Assembly: GCF_044324875.1 (NCBI RefSeq)
Contig: NZ_CP172185.1
From: Escherichia coli
GTDB taxonomy: Bacteria > Pseudomonadota > Gammaproteobacteria > Enterobacterales > Enterobacteriaceae
Length of the DNA: 64,000 nt
Direction: 5' to 3' (one strand)
Shown here piece after piece: positions 2,019 through 63,508 of this stretch. Numbering within the stretch: position 1 is the first letter of the stretch; every line of letters begins with the position of its first letter. Position numbers and translations under genes: made by a program. The notes under the pieces were generated by a model, which saw only the letters and a list, made by a program, of their open reading frames with translations, did not search any database and was not told where the DNA came from.

Positions 2019-3111
2019 GGTTGTATTGCTGTGCCGTCCGGGCTTTGAAAAAGAGTGCGCCGCAGAAATTACCGATAAAGCCGGCCAGCGGGAAATTTTC
2101 GGTTTTGCCCGCGTGAAAGAGAATGCGGGTTATGTGATTTATGAATGTTATCAACCTGATGATGGCGATAAGTTAATCCGTGAGCTGCCGTTCAGTTCAT
2201 TAATTTTTGCCCGCCAGTGGTTTGTAGTGGGGGAACTCCTGCAGCATTTGCCGCCAGAAGATCGTATTACTCCCATTGTCGGCATGTTACAGGGCGTAGT
2301 AGAGAAGGGCGGTGAACTGCGTGTTGAAGTTGCCGATACCAACGAAAGCAAAGAGTTGCTGAAATTCTGCCGTAAATTCACCGTGCCGCTACGCGCTGCC
2401 TTGCGCGATGCGGGTGTGCTGGCGAACTATGAAACGCCGAAGCGTCCGGTTGTGCATGTATTCTTTATTGCACCAGGCTGCTGCTATACCGGTTACTCAT
2501 ACAGCAACAATAATTCGCCGTTCTATATGGGCATTCCGCGCCTGAAATTTCCGGCAGATGCGCCGAGTCGTTCCACGCTCAAACTGGAAGAGGCATTTCA
2601 TGTGTTTATTCCTGCGGATGAGTGGGATGAACGCCTGGCGAACGGGATGTGGGCGGTGGATTTAGGCGCTTGCCCAGGCGGCTGGACCTACCAACTGGTG
2701 AAGCGCAACATGTGGGTTTATTCCGTCGACAACGGCCCGATGGCGCAAAGTCTGATGGATACCGGACAGGTGACGTGGCTGCGGGAAGACGGTTTCAAAT
2801 TCCGTCCGACACGCAGCAATATCTCCTGGATGGTATGCGATATGGTTGAAAAACCGGCGAAAGTTGCGGCATTGATGGCGCAGTGGCTGGTTAATGGCTG
2901 GTGCCGTGAAACCATTTTCAACCTCAAACTGCCGATGAAAAAACGCTACGAAGAAGTGTCACACAATCTGGCGTATATTCAGGCACAGCTTGATGAACAT
3001 GGCATAAATGCTCAGATCCAGGCGCGGCAGTTGTATCACGATCGCGAAGAAGTGACGGTGCACGTCCGCCGTATCTGGGCTGCGGTGGGTGGTCGTCGCG
3101 ACGAGCGATAA
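2011..3111 (+). CDS. rlmM: 23S rRNA 2'-O-ribose C2498 methyltransferase RlmM
   Basis: 366-aa ORF beginning [16 protein letters not shown]; length and synteny match RlmM (YgdE). Confidence 0.9.
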
Positions 3112-3154: not shown

Positions 3155-3886
3155 TCAGGCTGTTACCAAAGAAGTTGCAACCTGGCGCTCATCAGAAATA
3201 ATGTGCGTTACCTCATCCAGATGCCCGATGCGGGCTTCCCCTGAACGATTAAATTTACTTTTATCAATCAATAACAACGATTGCGCGGCGCGTTTTAATA
3301 GCATTGATTTGTAATCAGCGTTGATGGCATTGGAGTCCCACAGTGCGCCGCTGCTATCGATCCCTTCACAAGAAAAAATAAACAGATCGATTTCCAGCGA
3401 TTTAAGTTGAGAAATCAGCGAGGGATTGACGTAACAGCCATATTTGCGCTCAAGTGTGCCGCCGGAACTGATCAGTTGAATGCGTTCGCGTTTACCGAGT
3501 TCATGGCAAATCGGATGGCTATTGGTGAAGACCTGGATGTTGATGTCAGGCAACTGGCGTGCCAGATACCAGCAGGTTGAACTTGCGTCTAAGGCTATTA
3601 CCATCCCTTCTTCAATCCACGCGAGCGCCTCGCGCGCGATATCTGCTTTATGCGCATAATGGCTTTTCAGCCGGATGTGAAAGGGATCGCCACTGTCTTG
3701 ATTTTGACGGTGGATATATTTAGCGCGCCCATGATTGCGCAGAATTTTACCCTGCGTCTGTAATTCATTGAGATCGCGACGAATGGTTTCTTTACTGACC
3801 TTTAGCTGTTCAGAGAGAGCTTCCGTGGTCAGGCTGGTATGGTTCAGCAGCAGGTCGACTATCGCTTGCTGGCGTGCCGCTTTCAT
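3155..3886 (-). CDS. fucR: DeoR-family L-fucose operon activator FucR
   Basis: ORF runs to 3895 (MKNMKAARQQ...); K-12 FucR begins MKAARQQAIVDLLLNHTSL, so start at 3886 is preferred; DeoR HTH plus sugar-binding domain. Confidence 0.9.
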   Translation of the reverse strand: MKAARQQAIVDLLLNHTSLTTEALSEQLKVSKETIRRDLNELQTQGKILRNHGRAKYIHRQNQDSGDPFHIRLKSHYAHKADIAREALAWIEEGMVIALDASSTCWYLARQLPDINIQVFTNSHPICHELGKRERIQLISSGGTLERKYGCYVNPSLISQLKSLEIDLFIFSCEGIDSSGALWDSNAINADYKSMLLKRAAQSLLLIDKSKFNRSGEARIGHLDEVTHIISDERQVATSLVTA

Positions 3887-3943
3887 ATTTTTCACCCCAT
3901 CATTCGATAACCGCCCGCGTCATGCGGGCGTACCGGTATGAGA

Positions 3944-4366
3944 TTACGGTGTTACCCCTTTTTTTAAAAGAATATTCCCGTACTTCGCTCGTTCGCCTGT
4001 GATAACGATCGCAAAGGCTTTTTGTGCCCGTTCATAAAACGCAAAACGATTGATGCGGATGATGTCAGGACACGGGGCTTGTAGTGAAAGCGCATTACGG
4101 TAACGTCGTTCTACTTCAGGATCGAGAGTGTCACCTTCTACCGCCGCCATCATCACCAGCGGCGGTGCATAACTGTCCAGTTCAAATAACGGGATAATCG
4201 CCTGGAGCAAGTCGCTCACCAACAGGCCATCAGCGCGGATCACCTGCGGTCCCATCGAATGGGCGGGAAAGTGAGCATCGGAAAAAATAATTTCATCTCC
4301 ATGCCCCATCTCTGCCAGCACTTTCAATAGTTCGGGAGAAATTAACGGCGAAATTGTTTTCAGCAT
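3944..4366 (-). CDS. fucU: L-fucose mutarotase FucU
   Basis: 140-aa ORF in the fucPIKUR operon; RbsD/FucU family. Confidence 0.9.
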
Positions 4367-4367
4367 T

Positions 4368-5786
4368 TCACACTTCCTCTATAAATTCAGGTTCAGTTTG
4401 CGGGTAGAAATAACGGTACTGATAATGAATCTGCGCGCGGGCTTCTTCCGGGCTGTTAAATTCCCCTACGCCATACCAACCGAACAGCGCAGCTCCTGCG
4501 ACGGTCGTTTCTGCGTCGTCGAGAACTTTTACCGGAATATCAAGCATATTGGCTTTAATCTGATTCCACAAAGTGTTGCGACTTCCTCCGCCGACTAACA
4601 ATAATTCAGAGGCTTTAAAGTGCCCGATTTTTTCCAGCATCTGTAGATTGCGCTGTAATTGCTCAGTTAACCCTTCCAGCGCCGCGCGATAGAAATGCCC
4701 CCGCGTGGTATTAAGCGTCACTCCTTGCCAGCCAGCGTTCTGACACGACAATAAATCACACTGCATTTTCACACCATCCGCGCCAGGTGCGATCAGACGA
4801 GCCTCTTCAATCAACATTTGCCAGGGAGTTTCAGCCGTCCAGAACAGTTTTCTCACCCATTCCAGCACGCCGGATGCCAGCCATTGCATACCTGGGTTAT
4901 ACAACCCTGCCTGACTATCCAGTTCGCAGGTGGAACCGGCATACTGACTTAACAGCGAAGTATCAACCTGGGCGCTACGGACCATTAAAATTTCCCATGT
5001 ACCGGAAGAGAGCACGGGTTCATTTTGTTCAGCACCAGCGCCAAAAAGGGCGAACTGGGTATCGTGACCTGCGGAAATCACCGGTATGCCAACGGGTAAG
5101 CCGAGCATTGCTGCGGCGCTGTTCTGTAACGTACCAATCTGTTCACCCGCTTCCACCAGACGAGGGAAGAGGCGGCGTGGAATACCGGTGGCGTGTAAAA
5201 TTTGCGGACTGAAATCGCGTTGCTGGATATCCAGCATCTGGCTGGTTCCGGCCATCGTGATATCAGTAGTGAATTCGCCGGTTAAACGGTGGTTAATCAG
5301 CGACGAAATAAAGAGCCAGGCGTGCGCGCGTTCCAGCAGTTGTGGATGATTTTCTTTCAACCACACCAACTTATATAACGTATTGAAACTAAAGGCTCCG
5401 ACGCCAGAAATAGCCTGCAACTGCTGTGCGGAGATCAACCGTTCAATATTGTCCATTACCGCTGCTGTTCGCGGACATTTCCAGCTAATGATCGGATAGA
5501 GCAGATTGCCTTGCTTATCTACCAGAGCGCCATCCACACCAAAGGTGGTGACGGCGATACCGCGGATGTGGCATTCAGTCAGTTCACTATTGATTTGCCG
5601 ACAGCAATCAGCAAAGCGTTGCAAAATGGCGTCTAAAGACCACTGGTGCCAGGTGGTGTTTTCCATCGCGATATCGCTGGCATTAGGCGTTGAGGCGCGG
5701 GCAACAATTTTTCCCTGCCGATTAACCGCGATGGCCCTGACATTGGTCGCGCCACAGTCGAGTACCAGGATAACTTCTTGTTTCAT
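4368..5786 (-). CDS. fucK: L-fuculokinase FucK
   Basis: FGGY kinase; ORF runs to 5816 but [21 protein letters not shown] at 5786 with an upstream AGGAG is the likely start. Confidence 0.9.
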
Positions 5787-5804
5787 AATCGCTCCTGCAA
5801 TATA

Positions 5805-5872
5805 GCCGGATAACATTGCTTATCCGGCTAACCACTCTTGCTTGTTCAGGCCCGGTAGCCGGAGCGACCGGG
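5805..5872. repeat. REP-like palindromic elements in the fucI-fucK spacer
   Basis: GCCGGATAACATTGCTTATCCGGC at 5805-5828 and CCCGGTAGCCGGAGCGACCGGG at 5851-5872. Confidence 0.6.
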
Positions 5873-5894
5873 CATCACATCAGGGAGTAATGTA

Positions 5895-7670
5895 TTAACG
5901 CTTGTACAACGGGCCGTAGTTCTGGCAAGCGCGGTAATCCTGGCCTTCAATATCCATGCCGTGCGCGGCCCAGGCAGAAGGACGATACACTTTGGTCTCT
6001 TCAACGTTGTGCATACATACCGGGATACGCAGCATGGAGGCAAGAGTGATAAAGTCTGCGCCAACGTGGCCGATGGTTAGAACCCCGTGGTTAGCGCCCC
6101 AGTTCGCCATTACCGAGTACACATCCGTAAACGGCCCTTTACCGGTGAGGCGCGGTGCAAACCAGGTGGTTGGCCAGGTTGAGTTGGTGCGTTTGTTGAG
6201 GATGTCATGCACATCCTTCGGCAATTCCACGCTCCAGCCTTCCGCGATTTGCAGTACCGGTCCCAGGCCTTTGATGATGTTGACACGAGTCATGGTGAAC
6301 GGGACGCCGCCTTCGGTAAGGAAGCGGGAAGAGTAACCGCCGCCACGGAAGTATTCGTGGATCGCCGGGCACCATTCGGTAGCGGCGAGGCAAGCGTCAG
6401 CCTCTTGCTGAGAGATTTCCCAGTGTGGCTTCATCGTCGGGTTACCTTCGCTGTCGCGTTGTTTACAGGAACCGTCCAGCGCAGCAGAACCGGAGTTGAT
6501 CAAATGGATGATGCCGTGTTCTGCCAGTCCATCGAGTTTATGCCCCGTTACACGTTCAATTGCTTCTGGTGACCAGTAGGTACGCACATCGGCAAATACC
6601 TGAGCGGTGCCGGTGAGCTGGTGACCCATTAGCATTGCCACGCCGTTAAGACTGTCGTTTTCGGTCGCCACGACAAAGGGTTCGCGCACGCCATTCCAGT
6701 CAAATGAACTGTTAAGGATCGCTTCGGCGGTGTCGCCATTGGGATATTGATCGGTCCAGTGGCGTTGTCCCTGGAAGCCCGCAGCGATGGCGTTGTAGCC
6801 AAGTGATTCTTCTACGCGACCAATATCGGCCAGTTTGCTGTTGCCTTGCATCATGTCGCGGATACACATCGCCATCAGTAAACTTTCGCGCAGAACTGCG
6901 CGGCTTTGCTCGGCATTGCGTTGATACTGTTTGTTATTTTCATCTTCGCCATAGCGGAAGTTTTTATCAGCCCAGGCCAGCGCCATTTCCAGTTCGGCTT
7001 CGTCGTAAATCTTCTGATCGATACGGCGACGAAGTTCGGTCATATCCACCGCCTGGACTTTCATTCCCAGCCAGGATTCAAAGAAGTTGTGATCAACAAT
7101 AGAACCGGCGATACCCATCGAAACGCCACCCAGCGACAGATAGCTTTTACCTTTCATGCTGGCGACGGCCAAACCGGCGCGGGCAAAGCGCAGCAGTTTT
7201 TCTTCAACATCAGCAGGAATCGATGTGTCATCGGCATCCTGAACGTCATGACCGTAAATGGAGAATGCCGGGATGCCTTTCTGGCTGTGAGCTGCCAAAG
7301 CCGCAGCCAGGTAAACAGCGCCGGGGCGTTCAGTGCCGTTAAAGCCCCAAATGGCTTTCGGGCGGGTTGGATCCATGTCGATAGTTTCACTGCCATAGCA
7401 CCAGCAAGGCGTTACCGTAATGGTGAGGCCTACATTCTGACTGCTGAATTTTTCTTCGCAAGCAGCGGCTTCAGCCATACCCGCGATACAGGTATCGGAA
7501 ATGACACACTCGACGGCAGCTCCGCAGGCATGGCGCAGTTTCTCGGTCAGCAGTGCGGCCGTAGCTTTCGCCATATTCATTGTTTGTTCTTCAAGCGACT
7601 CACGAACACCCATGCGACGACCGTCAATAACCGGGCGGATACCAATTTTCGGTAAGCTGATTTTTTTCAT
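5895..7670 (-). CDS. fucI: L-fucose isomerase FucI
   Basis: 591-aa ORF beginning [19 protein letters not shown]. Confidence 0.95.
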
Positions 7671-39835: not shown

Positions 39836-40507
39836 ATGCAGTACCCGATTAACGAGATGTTCCAGACCCTGCAAGGTGAGGGTTACTTTACCGGCGTCCC
39901 CGCCATTTTTATTCGTTTACAGGGATGCCCGGTTGGCTGTGCCTGGTGCGACACCAAACACACCTGGGAAAAGCTTGAGGATCGGGAAGTCTCCCTTTTC
40001 AGCATTCTGGCGAAGACCAAAGAGAGTGATAAGTGGGGGGCGGCGAGCAGTGAAGACTTGCTGGCTGTCATTGGTCGCCAGGGATACACCGCGCGGCATG
40101 TGGTGATTACGGGTGGTGAGCCTTGCATTCATGATTTGCTGCCACTGACTGACCTGCTCGAAAAGAACGGTTTTAGCTGCCAGATCGAAACCAGTGGTAC
40201 TCATGAGGTACGCTGCACACCGAATACCTGGGTTACCGTATCGCCAAAGCTGAACATGCGCGGCGGCTATGAAGTGTTGTCACAGGCACTGGAGCGAGCC
40301 AACGAAATCAAGCATCCAGTGGGACGCGTACGTGATATTGAAGCACTGGATGAACTACTGGCAACACTGACCGATGATAAACCGCGAGTCATTGCACTGC
40401 AGCCGATTAGCCAAAAGGATGATGCTACTCGTTTATGTATCGATACGTGCATTGCGCGCAACTGGCGTTTGTCGATGCAAACGCATAAATATTTAAATAT
40501 TGCCTGA
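39836..40507 (+). CDS. queE: 7-carboxy-7-deazaguanine synthase QueE (radical SAM)
   Basis: 223-aa ORF; MQYPINEMFQTLQGEGYFTGVPAIFIRLQGCPVGCAWCDTKHTW with CxxxCxxC-type radical-SAM cluster motif. Confidence 0.9.
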   Translation: MQYPINEMFQTLQGEGYFTGVPAIFIRLQGCPVGCAWCDTKHTWEKLEDREVSLFSILAKTKESDKWGAASSEDLLAVIGRQGYTARHVVITGGEPCIHDLLPLTDLLEKNGFSCQIETSGTHEVRCTPNTWVTVSPKLNMRGGYEVLSQALERANEIKHPVGRVRDIEALDELLATLTDDKPRVIALQPISQKDDATRLCIDTCIARNWRLSMQTHKYLNIA

Positions 40508-40559
40508 TTAAACATTTATAAGCGTTATAAATGGGTGGAACCTGTAAAGACTTCTACTC

Positions 40560-40845
40560 ATTTATATTCTTTGTCGCCTCTGAAAAACCTCCATTTTGCC
40601 CATCCTGAACTAATCATTATCATTCTCTACAAATTTTATGGCGTTAATTTTTCGTTGGAGTGAAAATTATTGCGGTGAAATTTGGTAGATTTTAGTTTGA
40701 ATAGAGTTATTTCAAATATTTATCTTTTTAATCAATGGATTAAATGCTCTTTAACATAATGGATGTGTTGTTTGTGTGATACTGTAAAGTTGGTAGATTG
40801 TGACTGGCTTAAAAAATCATTAATTAATAATAGGTTATGTTTAGA
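40560..40845 (+). promoter_or_regulatory. CRISPR leader (AT-rich)
   Basis: About 285 bp of AT-rich sequence ending ...TAGGTTATGTTTAGA immediately before the first repeat. Confidence 0.7.
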
Positions 40846-41118
40846 GAGTTCCCCGCGCCAGCGGGGATAAACCGCTTCATCTGTCGGGCTAACTGGACAA
40901 AGAAACGAGTTCCCCGCGCCAGCGGGGATAAACCGTCGGTTTGACATCAAAGAAGCCATCAATCAGGGAGTTCCCCGCGCCAGCGGGGATAAACCGGTCT
41001 GGCCATAGGAACAAAGAAATTTGTCTTTGAGTTCCCCACGTCAGCGGGGATAAACCGGACACAGAGCGCCGCTATAGCGCCTATGCCAAGAGTTCCCCGC
41101 GCCAGCGGGGATAAACCA
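40846..41118 (+). CRISPR. type I-E CRISPR array (CRISPR2.1 position), 5 repeats and 4 spacers
   Basis: 29-bp repeats GAGTTCCCCGCGCCAGCGGGGATAAACCG at 40846, 40907, 40968, 41029 (variant CCCCACGTCAG) and 41090 (terminal, ends A); 32-bp spacers at 40875-40906, 40936-40967, 40997-41028, 41058-41089. Confidence 0.95.
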
Positions 41119-41571
41119 CCATATAACCCGTTATCTCTTTCTCAAGTTTTTATATTAGCAGTACTTGTAATAAGCAACATATCCACGTAACACCTCATGT
41201 TCAAAATAGTTCTCCATGCCAGAGAAGTTCACAATTATCGATACAAAAAATTAAATTTAATCAAAGTGTTATTTGTATGATTCTTAAATCGTTAAGAAAT
41301 TTTAATATATTATTTTTTTAATATTAATTAATGCCTGTTAATTTTTTCTTTAGAATAACAGTGTATTTTTTAAGCTTATTATTCATTGATTAAGTAATAA
41401 ATCTGGAAATTTGTCTTTGTTTTGAGGCTAATGAGTGATTTTACATAATCGCCTCTATACGCTGTTGATGAATAGTTCTTATGAATAAAGATATCCAGTT
41501 CATACTTTAAGTGAAAATTGATAAAGTGCGATTCGTATTGTCTTTTATTCTAAAGACATCGAGTGTAGTTA

Positions 41572-41709
41572 ATATTCCTTGTAAAAACAGGGATAAACCG
41601 AACTAGTTAAAGTTTTTATTATGTTCCCTGCATCAGCGGGGATAAACCGGACTTGTTATCATTTTTTAAGTTGTCGAACTTATGTTCCCCGCGTCAGCGG
41701 GGATAACCA
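41572..41709 (+). CRISPR. degenerate CRISPR remnant (CRISPR2.2-3-like)
   Basis: Three decayed repeat-like units ending GGGGATAAACCG (41572-41600, 41621-41649, 41682-41709, the last with a 1-bp deletion); intervening segments of 20 and 32 bp; AT-rich leader-like region upstream. Confidence 0.6.
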
Positions 41710-41755
41710 TTCAGGTATGTTCAGGCCGGGCAGTTTCCCGCCCGGTCTTCCTCAC

Positions 41756-43234
41756 TTACGCATTCGACCAGCTCTGGATCGAATCTTCATTCCCCAGCTC
41801 ACCATGCATCACTTCATACGATTTTTTCAGGATCACATCAGTGTGTTTGGTTAGGTCTTTGAAAATGCCTTTATTCATCGCGTTGTAGCGTTTGGCGTTG
41901 CTCTCAACAGGCATAAAGATATCTTTCACGCGAACCATTTTGTCGACAGCCGTTGCGTAATCCGGGTATAGCCCCAGACCTACCGCCGTATTAATCGCTG
42001 CCCCCAGGCTTGCACAACCATTAATGGCGTTACGGCGTGCCGGAAGGTTGAACACGTCGGCAAAAATCTGCATAAACAGATCGCTGTTCGAACCGCCGCC
42101 AGTAATGATCACATGCTTTGCAAAGTGATTCATTTCATTACACATATTGTCGTAATTGTTCTTCAGCGTCAGCGCCACGCTTTCCAGTATCGAACGATAT
42201 ATCCATGCGTAATCCATGCTGGAATCAAAGCCAATCATAATCCCGCGTTTGTACGGTTCCCACGGATTGGTCAGCCAGTCCAGCACCGTCATCAGACCAT
42301 TACAGCCTGGCGGCACACAAGAAGCTTTTTTGTTGAGTAAATCTTCCGGTGAAAGATCCTGCGCCCTGGCATCCTGAATTAACGACTCGCCTAGCATGTC
42401 GCGCAGCCAGCTCACCGTCCACATGCCTTTGCGAATACCGTAACCTTCATACAGCAAGGTTTGCGGAATAGAAGACATAATCGGCCAGTACGCTACCGGA
42501 TCTTTCGGCAGTACTTTGCCGTTCATCATCAACGCGATGTAAGTGCCAAGAGAAATTACCGCAGTTTCATCATCCAGTAACCCGGCTCCCAGTGCTTCTA
42601 CCGGTTTATCACTGGTGGTACAAACAACCGGCAGCCCAGCCGGGAAATGTGTCGCCAGCGCGGCTTGAGGAGTGATATGCCCAAGAACAGTGCCCGGCAT
42701 TTGCACATCAAACAGCATATGACGGGGGATATTAAACTTCTCCATGACTGCGGCATCTTCACTCCATGCCCAGGTCTTATAATCCACCGGCCACTGACCA
42801 AAATAGTTGGCGATATTGTCTTTAAACTCGCCGGTTAAGCGATGCGTCAGATAACCCGAAAAAGAGGTGACATATGCCACGTCAGGATTCGTATGTTCGT
42901 AAGGGCGTGTAACGCGTGCATCCTGCCAGCTAATCAACGGCGCAGCTGGCGTGCCATCGGCTTTCAATAACGCACGGCAGCAACGGATGGATCCCAGACC
43001 AATACCGACAATATCTTCTTTATTTCCGGCAAACTGACTCATCAAATCGTGACCGGCAAAGCATAATGATGCCCATAAATCGTCGTCAGGATGTTCTGCG
43101 GTATCGGCATCTGGCGTGTGCATCGGCTGCAATAAGCCTTTGCCTTCGCAAACCACATTACCTTCCAGATCGTACATCACCACTTTTGTGCTCTGACTTC
43201 CACCATCAATCCCTATGATGTATTTTTTCGACAT
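41756..43234 (-). CDS. ygcE: FGGY-family carbohydrate kinase YgcE
   Basis: 492-aa ORF beginning MSKKYIIGIDGGSQSTKVVMYD. Confidence 0.85.
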   Translation of the reverse strand: MSKKYIIGIDGGSQSTKVVMYDLEGNVVCEGKGLLQPMHTPDADTAEHPDDDLWASLCFAGHDLMSQFAGNKEDIVGIGLGSIRCCRALLKADGTPAAPLISWQDARVTRPYEHTNPDVAYVTSFSGYLTHRLTGEFKDNIANYFGQWPVDYKTWAWSEDAAVMEKFNIPRHMLFDVQMPGTVLGHITPQAALATHFPAGLPVVCTTSDKPVEALGAGLLDDETAVISLGTYIALMMNGKVLPKDPVAYWPIMSSIPQTLLYEGYGIRKGMWTVSWLRDMLGESLIQDARAQDLSPEDLLNKKASCVPPGCNGLMTVLDWLTNPWEPYKRGIMIGFDSSMDYAWIYRSILESVALTLKNNYDNMCNEMNHFAKHVIITGGGSNSDLFMQIFADVFNLPARRNAINGCASLGAAINTAVGLGLYPDYATAVDKMVRVKDIFMPVESNAKRYNAMNKGIFKDLTKHTDVILKKSYEVMHGELGNEDSIQSWSNA

Positions 43235-57968: not shown

Positions 57969-58319
57969 CCACCACGCGGGGGTAAAACCCCGCGTATTGA
58001 ATTGTGATGGTTTGGTCTCCTGCACCCTTTTTTAATTTATATTGTTTATGTGAATATTATGCCTATGTTTATTATTCATATATATTACGGATGAAAATTA
58101 TTTGATTATTCATAATGTGCAAAATGGCATCTGAATCGATCGCAGTTTGGCATTCGAATCGATCATGATTTGGCATCCATCTCCGATCACAGTTTGGCAT
58201 CACAATCGATCACGATTTGGCATGCTTCCGATCATTGATTGGCATCCTGCCAGTCACTCCGGGAATTAACTCTTTTCACCACAGTCTCCATTGCCGTGTT
58301 TAAACCAGTGGAGACGTCA

Positions 58320-59885
58320 ATGTCCAGAAAGAGAAAATCCAGGAGCACTATGGAAACCTGTTTTAAGATCCTTCAGCTCAAGTTCGACAAGAAGCTGACT
58401 AACCGTTGTATCGGACTGACGTTACACATCAGCGCCTCAACCGTTTTTGAGGTTCTTGCCCGCTTCAAAGCCTCTTCTCTGTCATGGCCATTACCTGCTG
58501 ATATATCCCATGACACGCTGGAGAAACTCATTTTTCCGCCCAAAGACACCTTTGCATCAGAGCTTGTAATGCCTGACATGTTGTACTTCGATACGGAAAT
58601 GAGAAAACCAGGTGTGACGCGGCAACTGTTGTGGATGGAATACAAGGCACAGGCGGGTAACAAAGCGATGGGATACTCGCACTTCTGCCGTTGCTACCGG
58701 GAGTGGAAAAAAACGCGACGTCTCTCCATGCGCCAGGAGCATCGTGCCGGCGAAAAGCTTTTTATCGACTTCTGTGGTCCTACGGTTCCTGTTATTAATC
58801 CGGACACCGGTGAGATACGCCGCGTGGCAATCTTCGTGGCCGTAATGGGGGCGTCCAACTATACCTACGTTGAAGCGTGCGAAGGTCAGGACATGATGTC
58901 ATGGTTAAATGCCCACAGCCGTTGCCTGACCTTCCTGGGCGGCGTACCGAAGCTGCTCATCCCCGATAACCTCAGAAGCGCAGTGAAAAAGGCCGATCGA
59001 TATGAGCCTGTCATCAACGACAGTTATCAGGCACTGGCTGAGCACTATGGCACGGTTATCATCCCGGCCCGACCACGCAAACCTAAAGATAAACCAAAAG
59101 CAGAAAACGGCGTCCTCATCGTTGAACGATGGCTTCTTGCCCGCATCCGTAATGAAACCTTCCACACGCTCAGGGCGCTGAATGCGCGCCTTAGGGAGTT
59201 ACTGACAGACATGAATAACCGGCCAATGAAGGGGTACGGCAATCAAACCCGTGCAGAACGCTTCCGCATACTGGATGCGCCAGCACTCTCTCCGCTGCCT
59301 CTGGCACCTTATGAATACACGGAATACAAAGCTGTGAAGGTTGGCCCTGACTACCACGTTGAATATGCCCGTCACTGGTACTCCGTTCCACACGAACTGG
59401 TCGGTCAGCGTCTGTCACTGAAGGCGGGGCAGTCGGTGGTACAGCTCTGGCACAAGGGGCAGTGTGTGGCGCAACATCCGCGCAGCACACATGAATATAA
59501 ACACACAACCAATCCGCTTCACATGCCAGAGCGCCACCGGCAGCACGGGACATGGACACCGGAACGCCTGATCGAGCAGGGAAAACGTACGGGCCCGTCC
59601 ACAGGCCGGGTGGTTGAATCCATGCTGAAGGCAAAACCCCATCCGGAACTGGCTTATCGTGCAGTTCTGGGGCTGCTGGCACTTCAGAAAAAATACGGCC
59701 CGGAACGGCTGGAAAAGGCCTGTTACGTTGCCCTGCACTATAACGCCCCTGACAGACGCTTTATCGACAATCTGCTGCGTCACCATCGGGAGAACCTGGA
59801 GCTTCCATTATCCCGCCAGGGCGAACAACATCCGGCATATGCTTCAGAGCATGAAAACCTGCGTGGTCCGGGCTACTACCACTGA
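58320..59885 (+). CDS. istA: IS21-family transposase IstA
   Basis: N-terminal HTH and DDE integrase core; start at MSRKRKSRS (58320) with GGAG RBS preferred over the ORF-track start 58239. Confidence 0.8.
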   Translation: MSRKRKSRSTMETCFKILQLKFDKKLTNRCIGLTLHISASTVFEVLARFKASSLSWPLPADISHDTLEKLIFPPKDTFASELVMPDMLYFDTEMRKPGVTRQLLWMEYKAQAGNKAMGYSHFCRCYREWKKTRRLSMRQEHRAGEKLFIDFCGPTVPVINPDTGEIRRVAIFVAVMGASNYTYVEACEGQDMMSWLNAHSRCLTFLGGVPKLLIPDNLRSAVKKADRYEPVINDSYQALAEHYGTVIIPARPRKPKDKPKAENGVLIVERWLLARIRNETFHTLRALNARLRELLTDMNNRPMKGYGNQTRAERFRILDAPALSPLPLAPYEYTEYKAVKVGPDYHVEYARHWYSVPHELVGQRLSLKAGQSVVQLWHKGQCVAQHPRSTHEYKHTTNPLHMPERHRQHGTWTPERLIEQGKRTGPSTGRVVESMLKAKPHPELAYRAVLGLLALQKKYGPERLEKACYVALHYNAPDRRFIDNLLRHHRENLELPLSRQGEQHPAYASEHENLRGPGYYH

Positions 59886-59901
59886 CAGAAGGAACAACAG
59901 T

Positions 59902-60657
59902 ATGAGTGATAACCTGTTAAACAAACTGACCCAACTGAAACTCCCGGCGATGGCCGGGAGCCTGATACGGCAGCGGGAAACGCCTCAGACCTACGACGAA
60001 CTGTCGTTCGAGGAAAGGCTGACGCTGCTGGTTGATGACGAGCTTCTGAGCAGGGAAAACAGCCGTGTGGCACGGTTGAGAAAAAATGCCGGCCTGAAAT
60101 ACCAGGCAACACCGGAAGGGCTGCGCTATCCGGCCTCAAGAGGTCTGCGGGCTGAACAGATGAGAGAACTGCTGAACGGCCACTACATAACCCACAGGAA
60201 AAACCTGCTGATAACCGGTCCGACAGGATGTGGCAAGAGCTGGATAGCCAATGCGCTGGGCGAACAGGCATGTCGACAGAAACACAGCGTCCGGTACTGT
60301 AGAACCGGGCGATTACTGGAACAACTGGCTCAGGGACGTGTTGATGGCAGCTGGCTGAAATATCTGAAACAGTTGCAAAAAATACAGGTTCTAATCCTGG
60401 ACGATCTGGGGCTGGAACAGTTAAGTAACGCCCAGTGTAATGACCTTCTGGAGCTCATAGAGGATCGTTACGGACAAAGCAGCACGATAGTGGTAAGCCA
60501 GTTCCCGGTAGATAAATGGCATGGTCTGATGGAGAACCCAACAACAGCAGATGCCATCCTGGACAGACTGGTACATAACTCACACCGAGTGGTCCTTCAG
60601 GGAGAGTCACTGAGGAAAAATCCCCCGGTAGTGGAAAGCAGCGAAAAAACGCGTTAA
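59902..60657 (+). CDS. istB: IS21-family ATP-binding helper IstB
   Basis: 251-aa form MSDNLLNKL... with Walker A GPTGCGKSW and Walker B LILDDLG; ORF-track start 59659 overlaps istA. Confidence 0.85.
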   Translation: MSDNLLNKLTQLKLPAMAGSLIRQRETPQTYDELSFEERLTLLVDDELLSRENSRVARLRKNAGLKYQATPEGLRYPASRGLRAEQMRELLNGHYITHRKNLLITGPTGCGKSWIANALGEQACRQKHSVRYCRTGRLLEQLAQGRVDGSWLKYLKQLQKIQVLILDDLGLEQLSNAQCNDLLELIEDRYGQSSTIVVSQFPVDKWHGLMENPTTADAILDRLVHNSHRVVLQGESLRKNPPVVESSEKTR

Positions 60658-60808: not shown

Positions 60809-63508
60809 ATGCGTAAATATCCTTTAAGTTTACTGAAGGATAAAAATATTGTGACTTTTTTTGATTTCTGGGGAAAAACCCGACGCGGCGAGAAAGACGG
60901 GGGCGACGACTATCACCTTCTTTGCTGGCATTCGCTGGATGTAGCCGCGATGGGCTATTTAATGGTTAAAAGCAATTGCTTCGGGCTGACTGACTATTTT
61001 CGTCAACTAGGTTTCGCTGATACGGAGCAGGCAGCACAATTTTTCGCCTGGCTATTGTGCTGGCACGATACTGGAAAATTTGCCCGCTCTTTTCAGCAAC
61101 TTTACCTGCACCCACAACTCAAGGTTCCGGAAGGCGCAAGAAAGAATTACGAAAAGATCTCTCATTCAACGCTGGGCTACTGGCTGTGGCATCATTATTT
61201 AAGTGAATACGAAGAATTGCTTCCTTCATCTTCACTCTCTCCGCGCAAACTTAAACGGGTGATGGAGATGTGGATGCCCATAACTACCGGGCATCATGGT
61301 CGCCCGCCTGACCGTATTGATGAACTGGATAATTTTCTGCCTGAAGACAAAGCTGCCGCGCGAGATTTTCTTCTTGAAATCAAACCACTGTTTCCGCTCA
61401 TAGAGATCCCCGCATTCTGGGATGATGATGAGGGCATTGAACTTATAAAACACCTTTCCTGGTATATCTCTGCAACCGTCGTGCTCGCAGACTGGACGGG
61501 TTCGTCAACGCGATTTTTTCCACGCGTCGCACACCCAATGGATATTAAAGGTTACTGGCAGAAAACTTTAGTTCAGGCTCAAAACGCCTTAACCGTCTTT
61601 CCTCTAAAAGCAAAAGTCGCGCCTTTCACCGGAATTAATACGCTGTTTCCTTTTATTGAGAATCCGACACCGTTACAGCAAAAGGTGCTGGATCTGGATA
61701 TCAGCCAGCCAGGGCCACAGTTATTTATTCTGGAAGATGTGACTGGCGCAGGTAAAACGGAAGCGGCGCTTATCCTGGCGCACAGGTTGATGGCTGCGGG
61801 TAAAGCGCAGGGTTTGTTTTTTGGCCTGCCAACAATGGCAACGGCCAATGCCATGTACGATCGACTGGTCAAAACCTGGCTTGCTTTCTATTCGCCAGAG
61901 TCCCGCCCCAGCCTGGTGCTGGCACACAGTGCCCGAACATTAATGGACCGCTTTAATGAATCACTCTGGTCCGGTGATTTAGTCGGGTCAGAAGAACCGG
62001 ATGAACAAACGTTCAGTCAGGGATGTGCGGCCTGGTTTGCCGACAGTAACAAGAAGGCGCTACTGGCTGAAATTGGCGTCGGCACGCTGGATCAGGCGAT
62101 GATGGCTGTGATGCCGTTCAAACATAATAATCTGCGGCTTCTGGGACTGAGTAACAAAATCCTGCTGGCTGATGAGATCCATGCCTGTGACGCTTACATG
62201 TCATGCATTCTTGAAGGGCTGATCGAGCGGCAGGCGCGTGGCGGAAACAGCGTCATTTTGCTTTCTGCCACGTTATCTCAACAGCAGTGCGACAAACTCG
62301 TTGCTGCCTTTGCGCGTGGTACAGAGGGCCAGCAAGAAGCTCCGTTCCTGGAAAAGGATGATTACCCCTGGCTGACGCACGTTACGAAATCCGATGTGCA
62401 TTCACACCGGGTAGCGACGCGCAAAGACGTTGAGCGTAGCGTGAGCGTGGGTTGGCTTCATAGCGAACAAGAATGTATTGCGCGTATCGAATCGGCAGTA
62501 AGTCAGGGGAAATGCATCGCCTGGATCCGGAATTCTGTCGATGACGCTATTAAGGTTTATCGTCAGTTGCTTGCCCGCGGCGTCATTCCTGCTTCCAGCC
62601 TTTCTCTGTTTCATAGCCGCTTTGCTTTTAGCGATCGCCAGCGAATTGAAACGGAAACGCTGGCACGCTTCGGTAAAGAAGATAGCTCACAGCGTGCCGG
62701 AAAAGTCCTCATTTGTACTCAGGTCTTAGAGTCGAGCGTTGATTGCGATATGGACGAAATGATTTCCGACCTGGCCCCTGTTGATTTGCTGATCCAGCGA
62801 GCGGGGCGATTACAGCGGCATATCCGCGATATTAATGGTCAGTTAAAGCGTGACGGAAAAGACGAGCGTTCCCCTCCTGAATTGCTGATTCTGGCCCCCG
62901 TCTGGGACGACGCTCCAGGTGACGAATGGTTCGGCAGTGCCATGCGTAACAGTGCATATGTCTATCCCGATCATGGACGAATCTGGCTGACGCAGCGTGT
63001 ACTGCGTGAGCAAGGCGCTATTCAAATGCCACACGCAGCCCGCCTTCTTATTGAATCAGTCTACGGTGAGGACGTGGTAATGCCGGAAGGATTTGCCCGC
63101 AGCGAGCAGGAGCAAGTGGGCAAATATTACTGCGATCGCGCAATGGCTAAAAAGTTTGTGCTGAACTTCAGGCCTGGCTATGCCGCCAATATCAACGATT
63201 ACCTTCCGGAAAAGCTGTCGACACGTCTGGCGGAGGAGTCTGTTTCCCTGTGGCTGGCTACCTGTATTGCCAGTGTGGTGAAGCCTTATGCCAACGGTGC
63301 TCACGCATGGGAAATGAGCGTTGTCAGAGTGCGTCGAAGCTGGTGGAAAAAACATCGGGATGAGTTTTCTTTACTGGAAGGGGAAGCGTTCAGGCAGTGG
63401 TGCATTGAACAGCGGAAAGATCCGGAGATGGCAAACGTGATTTTAGTTACCGATGACGAAAGTTGCGGGTATTCGGCTATGGAAGGATTGACTGGCAAGG
63501 TTGGTTGA
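60809..63508 (+). CDS. cas3: CRISPR-associated helicase/nuclease Cas3 (type I-E, non-K-12 sequence variant)
   Basis: 899-aa ORF: N-terminal HD domain (HSLDVAAMGYL, CWHDTGK), DEAD/DEAH helicase (Walker A GAGKTEA, LADEIHA); clearly diverged from the K-12 Cas3 sequence I recall. Confidence 0.85.
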   Translation: MRKYPLSLLKDKNIVTFFDFWGKTRRGEKDGGDDYHLLCWHSLDVAAMGYLMVKSNCFGLTDYFRQLGFADTEQAAQFFAWLLCWHDTGKFARSFQQLYLHPQLKVPEGARKNYEKISHSTLGYWLWHHYLSEYEELLPSSSLSPRKLKRVMEMWMPITTGHHGRPPDRIDELDNFLPEDKAAARDFLLEIKPLFPLIEIPAFWDDDEGIELIKHLSWYISATVVLADWTGSSTRFFPRVAHPMDIKGYWQKTLVQAQNALTVFPLKAKVAPFTGINTLFPFIENPTPLQQKVLDLDISQPGPQLFILEDVTGAGKTEAALILAHRLMAAGKAQGLFFGLPTMATANAMYDRLVKTWLAFYSPESRPSLVLAHSARTLMDRFNESLWSGDLVGSEEPDEQTFSQGCAAWFADSNKKALLAEIGVGTLDQAMMAVMPFKHNNLRLLGLSNKILLADEIHACDAYMSCILEGLIERQARGGNSVILLSATLSQQQCDKLVAAFARGTEGQQEAPFLEKDDYPWLTHVTKSDVHSHRVATRKDVERSVSVGWLHSEQECIARIESAVSQGKCIAWIRNSVDDAIKVYRQLLARGVIPASSLSLFHSRFAFSDRQRIETETLARFGKEDSSQRAGKVLICTQVLESSVDCDMDEMISDLAPVDLLIQRAGRLQRHIRDINGQLKRDGKDERSPPELLILAPVWDDAPGDEWFGSAMRNSAYVYPDHGRIWLTQRVLREQGAIQMPHAARLLIESVYGEDVVMPEGFARSEQEQVGKYYCDRAMAKKFVLNFRPGYAANINDYLPEKLSTRLAEESVSLWLATCIASVVKPYANGAHAWEMSVVRVRRSWWKKHRDEFSLLEGEAFRQWCIEQRKDPEMANVILVTDDESCGYSAMEGLTGKVG

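What the first reader, a model, noticed from the sequence alone, without database searches (positions are those of the whole stretch)
41119..41709. Degenerate second array, and a 14-nt echo of a spacer-repeat junction in the inter-array region
The second locus retains three decayed repeat units with one 20-bp and one 32-bp spacer-like segment. Separately, GAAATTTGTCTTTG at 41406-41419 exactly matches the 3' end of spacer 3 plus the first repeat base (41016-41029). This may be a relic of recombination or deletion between arrays rather than chance, though the AT-rich context raises the chance of a coincidental match.
Basis: seen in the sequence. Interest (0 to 1): 0.3.

Follow-up and report, generated by a model that had tools for sequence, protein, structure and literature searches.

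The report
Known fossil CRISPR array; 14-mer is coincidence
The "second array" is the well-known vestigial CRISPR2.2 array that most E. coli carry next to their active CRISPR2.3 array, and the 14-base "echo" of a spacer is a chance match to an old, widespread stretch of the sequence between the arrays, not a recombination scar.

Summary
Both observations are in the sequence at the stated coordinates. The region is the E. coli CRISPR-II locus between queE (ygcF) and ygcE. [quoted passage not shown]

The 14-mer is exact at 41016-41029 and 41406-41419, but it is not a spacer relic.
- The inter-array copy, in an exact 48-nt context, is in 1236 of 4148 E. coli genomes. Spacer 3 is in only 20 of 5426.
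- Five sampled strains of other lineages have the 14-mer without spacer 3.
- Neither flank extends the match.
- The window holds 24 other-than-CRISPR direct repeats of at least 14 nt.
- Locally the match is still unlikely (P about 6e-4 to 5e-3), so it is a real but uninformative coincidence.

Side finding: the fossil array plus about 110 nt upstream (41461-41710) is almost invariant across about 4000 genomes (pi 0.004, against 0.055 in the adjoining DNA and 0.055-0.082 at third codon positions). It is also conserved in a cryptic-clade Escherichia. All three decayed repeats keep the Cas6e-type hairpin. This suggests purifying selection on a sense-strand RNA. That idea is unproven.

The parts
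39836..40507 (+). queE (ygcF), left boundary gene of the CRISPR-II locus
   Evidence: ORF; annotated queE in the 100%-identical locus of Ecol_316 and in K-12
40508..40845 (+). Intergenic DNA with leader 2.3 (AT-rich, 27% GC), ending in TTATGTTTAGA just before the first repeat
   Evidence: the leader is conserved in CFT073, E. albertii and E69; literature PMC3903273
40846..41118 (+). CRISPR2.3 array: 5 repeats of 29 nt (type A, GAGTTCCCCGCGCCAGCGGGGATAAACCG) and 4 spacers of 32 nt; the last repeat ends in CCA
40997..41028 (+). Spacer 3, GTCTGGCCATAGGAACAAAGAAATTTGTCTTT; rare (20 of 5426 genomes); no protospacer found
41016..41029 (+). 14-mer copy 1: last 13 nt of spacer 3 plus the first G of repeat 4
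41119..41460 (.). Variable AT-rich inter-array DNA (pi about 0.055, several deep haplotypes); no similarity to leaders, phages or anything else in the window
41406..41419 (+). 14-mer copy 2: one of three alleles of a polymorphic inter-array site (GAAATTTG..., GAAGTTTG... in K-12, AAAATTTG...)
41461..41571 (+). Nearly invariant segment upstream of the fossil array. Contains hairpin 41539-41558 (UGUCUUU/AAAGACA) nested in AUUCG/CGAGU, and inverted repeat TATGAA-N13-TTCATA (41480-41504)
41572..41600 (+). CRISPR2.2 unit A: strongly decayed repeat (18/29) that keeps the 7-bp hairpin and the GGGATAAACCG 3' end
   Evidence: identical 29/29 in E69
41601..41620 (+). 20-nt spacer-like segment, AACTAGTTAAAGTTTTTATT (12/20 identical to the start of the 32-nt spacer); absent together with unit B in E69
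   Evidence: (family D2)
41621..41649 (+). CRISPR2.2 unit B (24/29): hairpin kept with one G-U wobble, intact AUAAACCG handle
41650..41681 (+). Invariant 32-nt spacer, GACTTGTTATCATTTTTTAAGTTGTCGAACTT; identical in all 13 sampled E. coli loci that carry CRISPR2.2 (L002-L014); 30/32 in E69; no protospacer found
41682..41710 (+). CRISPR2.2 unit C: terminal repeat with an intact hairpin and a 1-nt deletion in the 3' handle (GGGGATAACCAT). It is the only part retained in fused CRISPR2.2-3 arrays
41756..43234 (-). ygcE (FGGY-family kinase), right boundary gene, convergent with the arrays

Best explanation
Positions 41119-41709 are the trailer half of the E. coli CRISPR-II locus (queE-ygcE). They consist of about 0.45 kb of AT-rich non-coding DNA followed by CRISPR2.2, a vestigial type I-E array of three decayed repeats and two fixed 'spacers'.

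CRISPR2.2 no longer acquires spacers. It has no recognisable leader, and its content is the same in every strain. The architecture (CRISPR2.3, 0.45 kb, CRISPR2.2) predates the split between E. coli and a cryptic Escherichia clade. It has been lost repeatedly by repeat-to-repeat deletion, giving the fused CRISPR2.2-3 arrays of B2 strains, E. albertii and E. whittamii.

The 14-nt identity between the end of spacer 3 and the inter-array DNA is a coincidence. The inter-array copy is a common and old allele of that site. Spacer 3 is a rare spacer of unknown foreign origin that was acquired independently at the leader end of CRISPR2.3.

Shown: the identity of the locus, the population distribution of both sequences, the absence of flank homology, the invariance of CRISPR2.2 and the retention of the hairpins. 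Inferred: the loss of acquisition ability, the order of evolutionary events and the foreign origin of spacer 3.
For: Locus identity:
- Gene context queE / array / ygcE, 100% identical to Ecol_316 and syntenic with K-12.
- The CRISPR2.2 content is identical in 13 other E. coli lineages whose CRISPR2.3 arrays hold 1 to 25 unrelated spacers.

14-mer:
- Present at the homologous inter-array position in 5 sampled strains that lack spacer 3 and in divergent EC571 and LR-58-2.
- Its exact 48-nt context is in 1236 of 4148 genomes. Spacer 3 is in 20 of 5426, always in the array.
- No extension of similarity on either side.
- 24 comparable direct repeats of >=14 nt in the window.

Age and deletions:
- E69 keeps a diverged homologue of the whole inter-array DNA and CRISPR2.2.
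- CFT073, ZJ3920, E. albertii and E. whittamii have leader-to-unit-C fusions.

The neighbouring spacers are ordinary foreign-derived spacers. Spacers 1 and 2 match a P1-like phage-plasmid 32/32, each with an ATG PAM.
Against: - The local probability of a >=13-14-nt exact match between this small array and the adjoining 453 nt is low: 6e-4 to 2e-3 by shuffling, and about 1 in 120 real spacers reaches 11 or more. Chance is accepted on comparative grounds, not because the match was expected.
- No protospacer was found for spacer 3 in phages, plasmids, E. coli genomes or IMG/VR, so its foreign origin is inferred, not shown.
- 'Vestigial' sits uneasily with the extreme conservation of 41461-41710. 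That conservation suggests some present-day function.
Confidence: 0.93

Rival explanations
1. The 14-mer is a scar of recombination or deletion between the CRISPR2.3 array and the inter-array DNA, i.e. the inter-array copy derives from spacer 3 plus the repeat.
For: Exact 14-nt identity that includes the spacer-repeat junction base. Low local chance probability. Repeat-mediated deletions between the two arrays do exist in the species.
Against: - The inter-array 14-mer is present in more than 1200 genomes that lack spacer 3, across distant lineages including O157:H7.
- Spacer 3 is confined to 20 genomes.
- Neither flank continues the similarity, so no junction exists.
- The 14th base is just the invariant G that starts every repeat.
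Confidence: 0.02
2. Spacer 3 is self-derived: Cas1-Cas2 captured it from the inter-array DNA of this or another Escherichia strain.
For: 13 nt of the spacer equal chromosomal DNA 390 nt away. No foreign protospacer was found.
Against: - Type I-E acquisition copies a contiguous stretch of about 33 nt. The other 19 nt of the spacer match the inter-array DNA at 4/19.
- The homologous site in divergent E69 is no closer.
- No ATG or AAG PAM context applies.
Confidence: 0.01
3. CRISPR2.2 plus about 110 nt upstream (41461-41710) is not a dead relic. It is a selected, sense-strand structured RNA: an invariant crRNA, or a Cas6e/Cascade-binding or transcript-stabilising element, made by read-through from the leader 2.3 promoter or from its own weak promoter. 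This concerns present function and is compatible with the origin given in the best explanation.
For: Within-species conservation:
- pi = 0.0038 (4 segregating sites in 250 nt). This compares with 0.055 in the adjacent inter-array DNA, 0.054 in the 45 nt before ygcE, 0.034 in leader 2.3, and 0.055-0.082 at third codon positions. Fisher P = 7e-11 to 1e-18.
- 3943 of 4163 genomes are >=99% identical over the island, against 26 of 4158 for the neighbouring 250 nt.

Between-clade conservation:
- Against E69 the array part differs at 4/91 positions, against 93/493 at ygcE third positions (P = 3e-4).

Structure:
- All three decayed units fold into the same 7-bp hairpin as the consensus repeat, and units A and B keep the AUAAACCG handle.
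- Substitutions in EC571 and E69 that fall in predicted stems keep pairing on the + strand: 6 of 6 one-sided transitions give G-U, there is one U-A to C-G compensatory change, and one pair is broken. Most would be C-A mismatches on the - strand.
Against: - No promoter or terminator consensus inside the island and no Rfam family.
- No target found for the invariant spacer.
- The island is dispensable in about 23% of genomes (B2 and others) and in E. albertii and E. whittamii.
- Covariation rests on only 4 distinct sequences and on helices partly chosen after seeing the data. The shuffle control has no power.
- GC-to-AT decay of a palindrome tends to preserve pairing by itself.
Confidence: 0.25

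Closest known systems
E. coli CRISPR2.2 array of the CRISPR-II locus (Diez-Villasenor et al. 2010 nomenclature; described in PMC4489801, PMC3903273, PMC3737337)
   Same: Same position (between ygcF/queE and ygcE, about 0.5 kb beyond CRISPR2.3), same composition (3 repeats, two invariable spacers), same type-2 / I-E repeat family, and no adjacent leader.
   Different: Nothing structural; this is that locus. What I did not find stated in the papers I read: nucleotide diversity there is about 14 times lower than in the flanks, conservation extends about 110 nt upstream, and a cryptic-clade genome has a two-unit version.
Fused CRISPR2.2-3 array (B2 strains such as CFT073; E. albertii)
   Same: Shares leader 2.3 and the terminal unit C (GGGGATAACCAT) next to ygcE.
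   Different: It lacks the 0.45-kb inter-array DNA and units A and B, through a repeat-to-repeat deletion or fusion. The window has the unfused two-array form.
Degenerate terminal (trailer-end) repeats and conserved ancestral spacers of active CRISPR arrays
   Same: Mutated last repeat; the oldest spacers are shared by all strains because new spacers enter at the leader end.
   Different: Here the degenerate units are separated from the active array by 0.45 kb of unrelated DNA. They are far less polymorphic than neutral flanking sequence, which shared ancestry alone does not explain.

Membership tests
E. coli CRISPR2.2 (vestigial type I-E array, CRISPR-II locus) | Lies between queE (ygcF) and ygcE, on the ygcE side | tested here: met
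   ORFs and RefSeq annotation of identical or syntenic loci
E. coli CRISPR2.2 (vestigial type I-E array, CRISPR-II locus) | Three repeats and two invariable spacers | tested here: met
   Units A, B and C with 20-nt and 32-nt segments, identical in 13 other lineages; definition from PMC4489801
E. coli CRISPR2.2 (vestigial type I-E array, CRISPR-II locus) | Separated from CRISPR2.3 by about 0.5 kb | tested here: met
   453 nt between 41118 and 41572, or 502 nt to unit B; PMC3903273
E. coli CRISPR2.2 (vestigial type I-E array, CRISPR-II locus) | Repeats belong to the I-E 'type 2' family (palindromic core CCCCGCG..CGCGGGG, 3' handle ATAAACCG) | tested here: met
   18/29, 24/29 and 23-24/29 identity to the consensus; all three fold into the same 7-bp hairpin
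E. coli CRISPR2.2 (vestigial type I-E array, CRISPR-II locus) | No leader of its own | tested here: met
   No significant similarity of the upstream 0.45 kb to leader 2.3, leader 2.1 or a Klebsiella I-E leader. Functional absence of a leader is not testable here.
Active, acquiring CRISPR array | Spacer content varies between strains, with polarised gain at the leader end | tested here: not met
   CRISPR2.2 content is identical in all sampled strains, while the adjacent CRISPR2.3 varies from 1 to 25 spacers
Active, acquiring CRISPR array | Transcribed and processed by Cas6e into crRNA | not testable with these tools
   Only the hairpin and handle are seen to be retained. No expression data were available.
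Recombination or deletion junction derived from spacer 3 | Similarity continues into one flank of the junction | tested here: not met
   4/19 matches upstream and no match downstream of the 14-mer
Recombination or deletion junction derived from spacer 3 | Confined to genomes that have, or descend from, the spacer-3 array | tested here: not met
   14-mer context in 1236 genomes, spacer 3 in 20; 5 sampled strains have the 14-mer without the spacer

The most novel reading that the evidence does not exclude
The 'fossil' CRISPR2.2 array and the roughly 110 nt before it (41461-41710) are maintained by purifying selection as a sense-strand structured RNA. The most specific version is a species-wide invariant crRNA: the AUAAACCG handle from unit B, the fixed 32-nt spacer, and the unit C hairpin. 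It would have a housekeeping or regulatory role rather than an immune one. A less specific version is a Cas6e-binding or transcript-end element for CRISPR2.3.
Probability: 0.2. Interest if true: 0.55.

Novelty: already known. Interest (0 to 1): 0.15.

Why it matters
As submitted, the finding matters little. The degenerate array is textbook E. coli CRISPR anatomy, and the 14-mer carries no historical information. The useful outcome is negative: short exact echoes between spacers and AT-rich flanks should not be read as recombination scars without population data.

The by-product could matter more. A supposedly dead CRISPR remnant is about 14 times less polymorphic than its surroundings across about 4000 genomes, and it keeps Cas6e-type hairpins. 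If that reflects function, it would be a case of a fixed, chromosomally conserved crRNA-like element in the best-studied type I-E system. It could be tested directly by RNA-seq and by deletion in K-12.

Tried and rejected
- Leader duplication. Local alignment of the inter-array DNA to leader 2.3 scored 30, against a shuffle mean of 23.8 +/- 2.8 (15 of 300 shuffles as high). blastn with word size 7 against leader 2.1, a Klebsiella I-E leader and the rest of the window found nothing. Rejected.
- Phage origin of the inter-array DNA. No blastn hit in 50,697 phage records.
- Known RNA family. Rfam in E-value mode returned only spurious sub-threshold 'Chlorobi-1' hits on CRISPR2.3 repeats.
- Protospacers.
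  - Spacer 3: none in phages, plasmids or E. coli genomes, and none for its first 20 nt in IMG/VR.
  - Invariant spacer B: no credible hit in phages or plasmids. The full matches in 'plasmids' are mislabelled chromosomes, and the IMG/VR hit L103 is an E. coli chromosomal fragment.
- Small protein in the island. ORF 41511-41606 (31 aa) shows 1 synonymous and 7 non-synonymous differences against E69 (my reading). The 77-aa and 68-aa ORFs that start at the ATG of units B and C run antisense into ygcE and are absent from fused-array strains. Rejected.
- Promoter just upstream of the island (TTGAGG-16-CATAAT at 41422-41449). The -10 is CATAAC in most strains, so it is not a conserved promoter.
- First diversity calculation for ygcE and yqcE. 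It was distorted by two strains with a truncated ygcE. It was redone without them. The codon-position labels in that output are shifted by one, so the class with the highest pi is the third position.

Full report
**What is at the coordinates.** The window around 40.5-41.8 kb reads as follows:
- queE (39836-40507, + strand).
- An AT-rich leader.
- Five 29-nt repeats (GAGTTCCCCGCGCCAGCGGGGATAAACCG) and four 32-nt spacers (40846-41118).
- 453 nt of 26.5%-GC DNA.
- Three degraded repeat units: 41572-41600, 41621-41649 and 41682-41710. They are separated by a 20-nt and a 32-nt segment.
- The 3' end of ygcE on the minus strand (41756-43234).

The 591-nt finding region is 100% identical to E. coli Ecol_316 and 98.5% identical to K-12 MG1655. 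It is found, always on the chromosome, in 4176 of 5426 complete E. coli genomes. RefSeq annotation of these loci gives queE, then CRISPR, then ygcE. This is the CRISPR-II locus of E. coli.

**The degenerate array is a known object.**
[quoted passage not shown] - My parse of 13 further E. coli lineages agrees. Their CRISPR2.3 arrays hold 1 to 25 unrelated spacers, but units A, B and C and both inter-unit segments are the same in all of them.

**The 14-mer.** GAAATTTGTCTTTG occurs exactly twice in the window, at the stated positions. Copy 1 is the last 13 nt of spacer 3 plus the G that begins every repeat.

How unlikely the match is:
- Against 5000 dinucleotide shuffles of the inter-array DNA, P(>=14) = 6e-4.
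- Among 120 real E. coli spacers the longest run shared with the inter-array DNA is usually 6-8 nt, with one at 11 and spacer 3 at 13.
- The 64-kb window nevertheless contains 24 non-CRISPR direct repeats of >=14 nt. A window-wide reader will meet such pairs.

- The inter-array site has three alleles: GAAATTTG..., GAAGTTTG... (the K-12 group) and AAAATTTG....
- The window's allele is present in O157:H7 EC4115, GPEC1201, TD225-C4, Z1002 and PRO_A-1490, none of which has spacer 3. It is also present in the divergent strains EC571 and LR-58-2.
- A 48-nt query centred on the 14-mer is matched exactly in 1236 of 4148 genomes.
- Spacer 3 is found in 20 of 5426 genomes, always inside the array.
- The 19 nt upstream of the two copies agree at 4 positions. 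The downstream sequences (AGTTCCCC versus TTTTGAGG) do not agree. There is no junction-like structure, and the spacer cannot have been copied from this DNA.

I conclude that the match is coincidental.

**Origin of the spacers.** The origin of spacer 3 remains unknown. I found no protospacer in phages, plasmids or E. coli genomes, and none for its first 20 nt in IMG/VR. Its neighbours are ordinary foreign-derived spacers. Spacers 1 and 2 match a P1-like phage-plasmid (pE2-2) 32/32. The two protospacers are 458 bp apart on the same strand, and each is preceded by ATG.

**Recombination between the arrays does occur, but elsewhere.**
- CFT073 and ZJ3920 (B2-type loci) have leader 2.3, one repeat, one spacer and then a hybrid repeat. 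That repeat's 3' end and flank are those of unit C.
- E. albertii and E. whittamii show the same kind of fusion.
- These are the published CRISPR2.2-3 arrays. The crossover lies inside the repeats, not at the 14-mer.
- Some genomes replace the whole locus by a sucrose (scr) locus next to queE (PMC11251922).

**What the inter-array DNA is.**
- It has no detectable relationship to leader 2.3, leader 2.1 or a Klebsiella I-E leader, to the rest of the window, to phages or to any Rfam family.
- A genome labelled E. coli E69 has ygcE diverged at 18.9% of third codon positions, which marks it as a cryptic-clade Escherichia. It carries a homologous but diverged copy: 70% identity in the 5' part, and the 14-mer site reads CAGTATAATTTGCGGTTG.
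- In E69 that copy is followed by a two-unit CRISPR2.2: unit A, the 32-nt spacer and unit C.
- The two-array architecture is therefore older than E. coli proper.
- The 49 nt made up of the 20-nt segment plus unit B are either a tandem duplication in E. coli or a deletion in E69 between the GGGATAAACCG ends of units A and B. In favour of duplication, unit A plus its segment is 74% identical to unit B plus the start of its spacer over 46 nt (family D2). I cannot decide between the two.

**Unexpected conservation.** The finding region splits sharply into two parts. Values are from about 12-14 diverse E. coli strains.

| Segment | pi | Segregating sites |
|---|---|---|
| 41190-41460 | 0.055 | 48 of 271 |
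| 41461-41710 (the "island") | 0.0038 | 4 of 250 |
| 41711-41755 (45 nt before ygcE) | 0.054 | 9 of 45 |
| Leader 2.3 | 0.034 | 22 of 166 |
| queE third codon positions | 0.055 | 50 of 224 |
| ygcE third codon positions | 0.082 | 118 of 493 |

- Fisher tests of the island against these other classes give P = 3e-6 to 1e-18.
- At population scale, 3943 of 4163 genomes are >=99% identical to the window over the island. Only 26 of 4158 are over the neighbouring 250 nt.
- Against E69 the array part differs at 4 of 91 positions, compared with 93 of 493 at ygcE third positions (P = 3e-4). The 110 nt upstream differ at 13 of 110.
- All three decayed units fold into exactly the hairpin of the consensus repeat. 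Unit A does so through U-A and G-U pairs, and units A and B keep the AUAAACCG handle.
- In EC571 and E69, substitutions within predicted stems of the upstream segment keep pairing on the + strand. Six of six one-sided transitions give G-U, there is one U-A to C-G double change, and one pair is lost. Most of these would be mismatches on the minus strand.

This pattern is what purifying selection on a CRISPR-sense RNA would give. The case is weak in several respects:
- Only four distinct sequences are available, and the shuffle control is uninformative.
- One helix was chosen after looking at the data.
- GC-to-AT decay of a palindrome tends to preserve pairing by itself.
- No promoter or terminator consensus lies in the island.
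- The invariant spacer has no detectable target.
- About a quarter of E. coli genomes do without the island.

I record this as unexplained and as the most novel reading that is not excluded.

**Context.** The strain has type I-E cas genes nearby. The closest relative, Ecol_316, carries cas3 to cas2 and CRISPR2.1 about 16 kb beyond ygcE. In the window an intact cas3 ORF lies at 60809-63508, preceded by an IS21-family insertion.

**Verdict.**
- Observation: confirmed.
- Interpretation: half right. It is a degenerate array, already known as CRISPR2.2. The 14-mer is not a relic but a coincidence.
- Novelty: already known.
- Interest: low for the finding as given. The conserved island deserves a separate, modest follow-up.

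Noticed in passing
window 41461-41710: The fossil CRISPR2.2 array plus about 110 nt upstream is nearly invariant in E. coli (pi 0.004, against 0.055 in the flanks; 3943 of 4163 genomes are >=99% identical). It is also conserved in cryptic-clade strain E69. The decayed repeats keep the Cas6e-type hairpin, and stem substitutions are compatible with a + strand RNA.
   Followed up: partly
window 40875-40906 and 40936-40967; L102 20002 and 20460: Spacers 1 and 2 match a P1-like phage-plasmid (pE2-2, NZ_CP048917.1) 32/32. The protospacers are on the same strand, 458 bp apart, and both have an ATG PAM, a pattern typical of primed acquisition. Spacer 1 is absent from the nearest relative Ecol_316, so it looks recent. 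Hundreds of E. coli plasmids carry these protospacers (632 plasmid places).
   Followed up: partly
L022 (E. coli E69, CP089930.1) 6520-7225, minus strand: A cryptic-clade Escherichia keeps the two-array architecture but has only two CRISPR2.2 units. The 49 nt made of the 20-nt segment plus unit B are missing, and its unit C has an intact GGGGATAAACC. In E. coli, unit A plus its segment resembles unit B plus its spacer (74% over 46 nt). This points either to a tandem duplication in E. coli or to a repeat-mediated deletion in E69.
   Followed up: partly
L016 (CFT073) 1140-1235; L017; L055 (E. albertii); L023 (E. whittamii): Fused CRISPR2.2-3 arrays: leader 2.3 is joined, through 0-3 spacers, to a hybrid terminal repeat that carries the 3' end of unit C. 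The 0.45-kb inter-array DNA and units A and B are deleted.
   Followed up: yes
window 58239-60657: An IS21-family element (istA 548 aa, istB 332 aa) is inserted between the cysH/hok region and cas3, just upstream of an intact 899-aa cas3 ORF (60809-63508). It is not present at this place in Ecol_316, where cas3 is annotated as frameshifted.
   Followed up: partly
window 41029-41057 (repeat 4): Repeat 4 carries the variant core CCCCACGTCAGCGGGG. The same variant recurs in four repeats of strain GPEC1201 (L007) and in unit C of EC571 (L019). It looks like a recurrent or exchanged repeat polymorphism.
   Followed up: no
L018 (UID2309220009) 3310-6310: In some genomes the whole CRISPR-II locus and ygcE are replaced, directly after queE, by a sucrose-utilisation (scr) cluster: a LacI-family regulator, a sucrose-6-phosphate hydrolase and a PTS IIBC component. 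This was described in PMC11251922.
   Followed up: no
L015 (HH45) 2318-3033; L103 (IMGVR_UViG_2531839665_000019): Two data-quality notes. HH45 shows a garbled, G-rich version of the array region, probably an assembly or basecalling error. One IMG/VR 'viral' contig is in fact an E. coli chromosomal fragment that carries the CRISPR-II locus.
   Followed up: no
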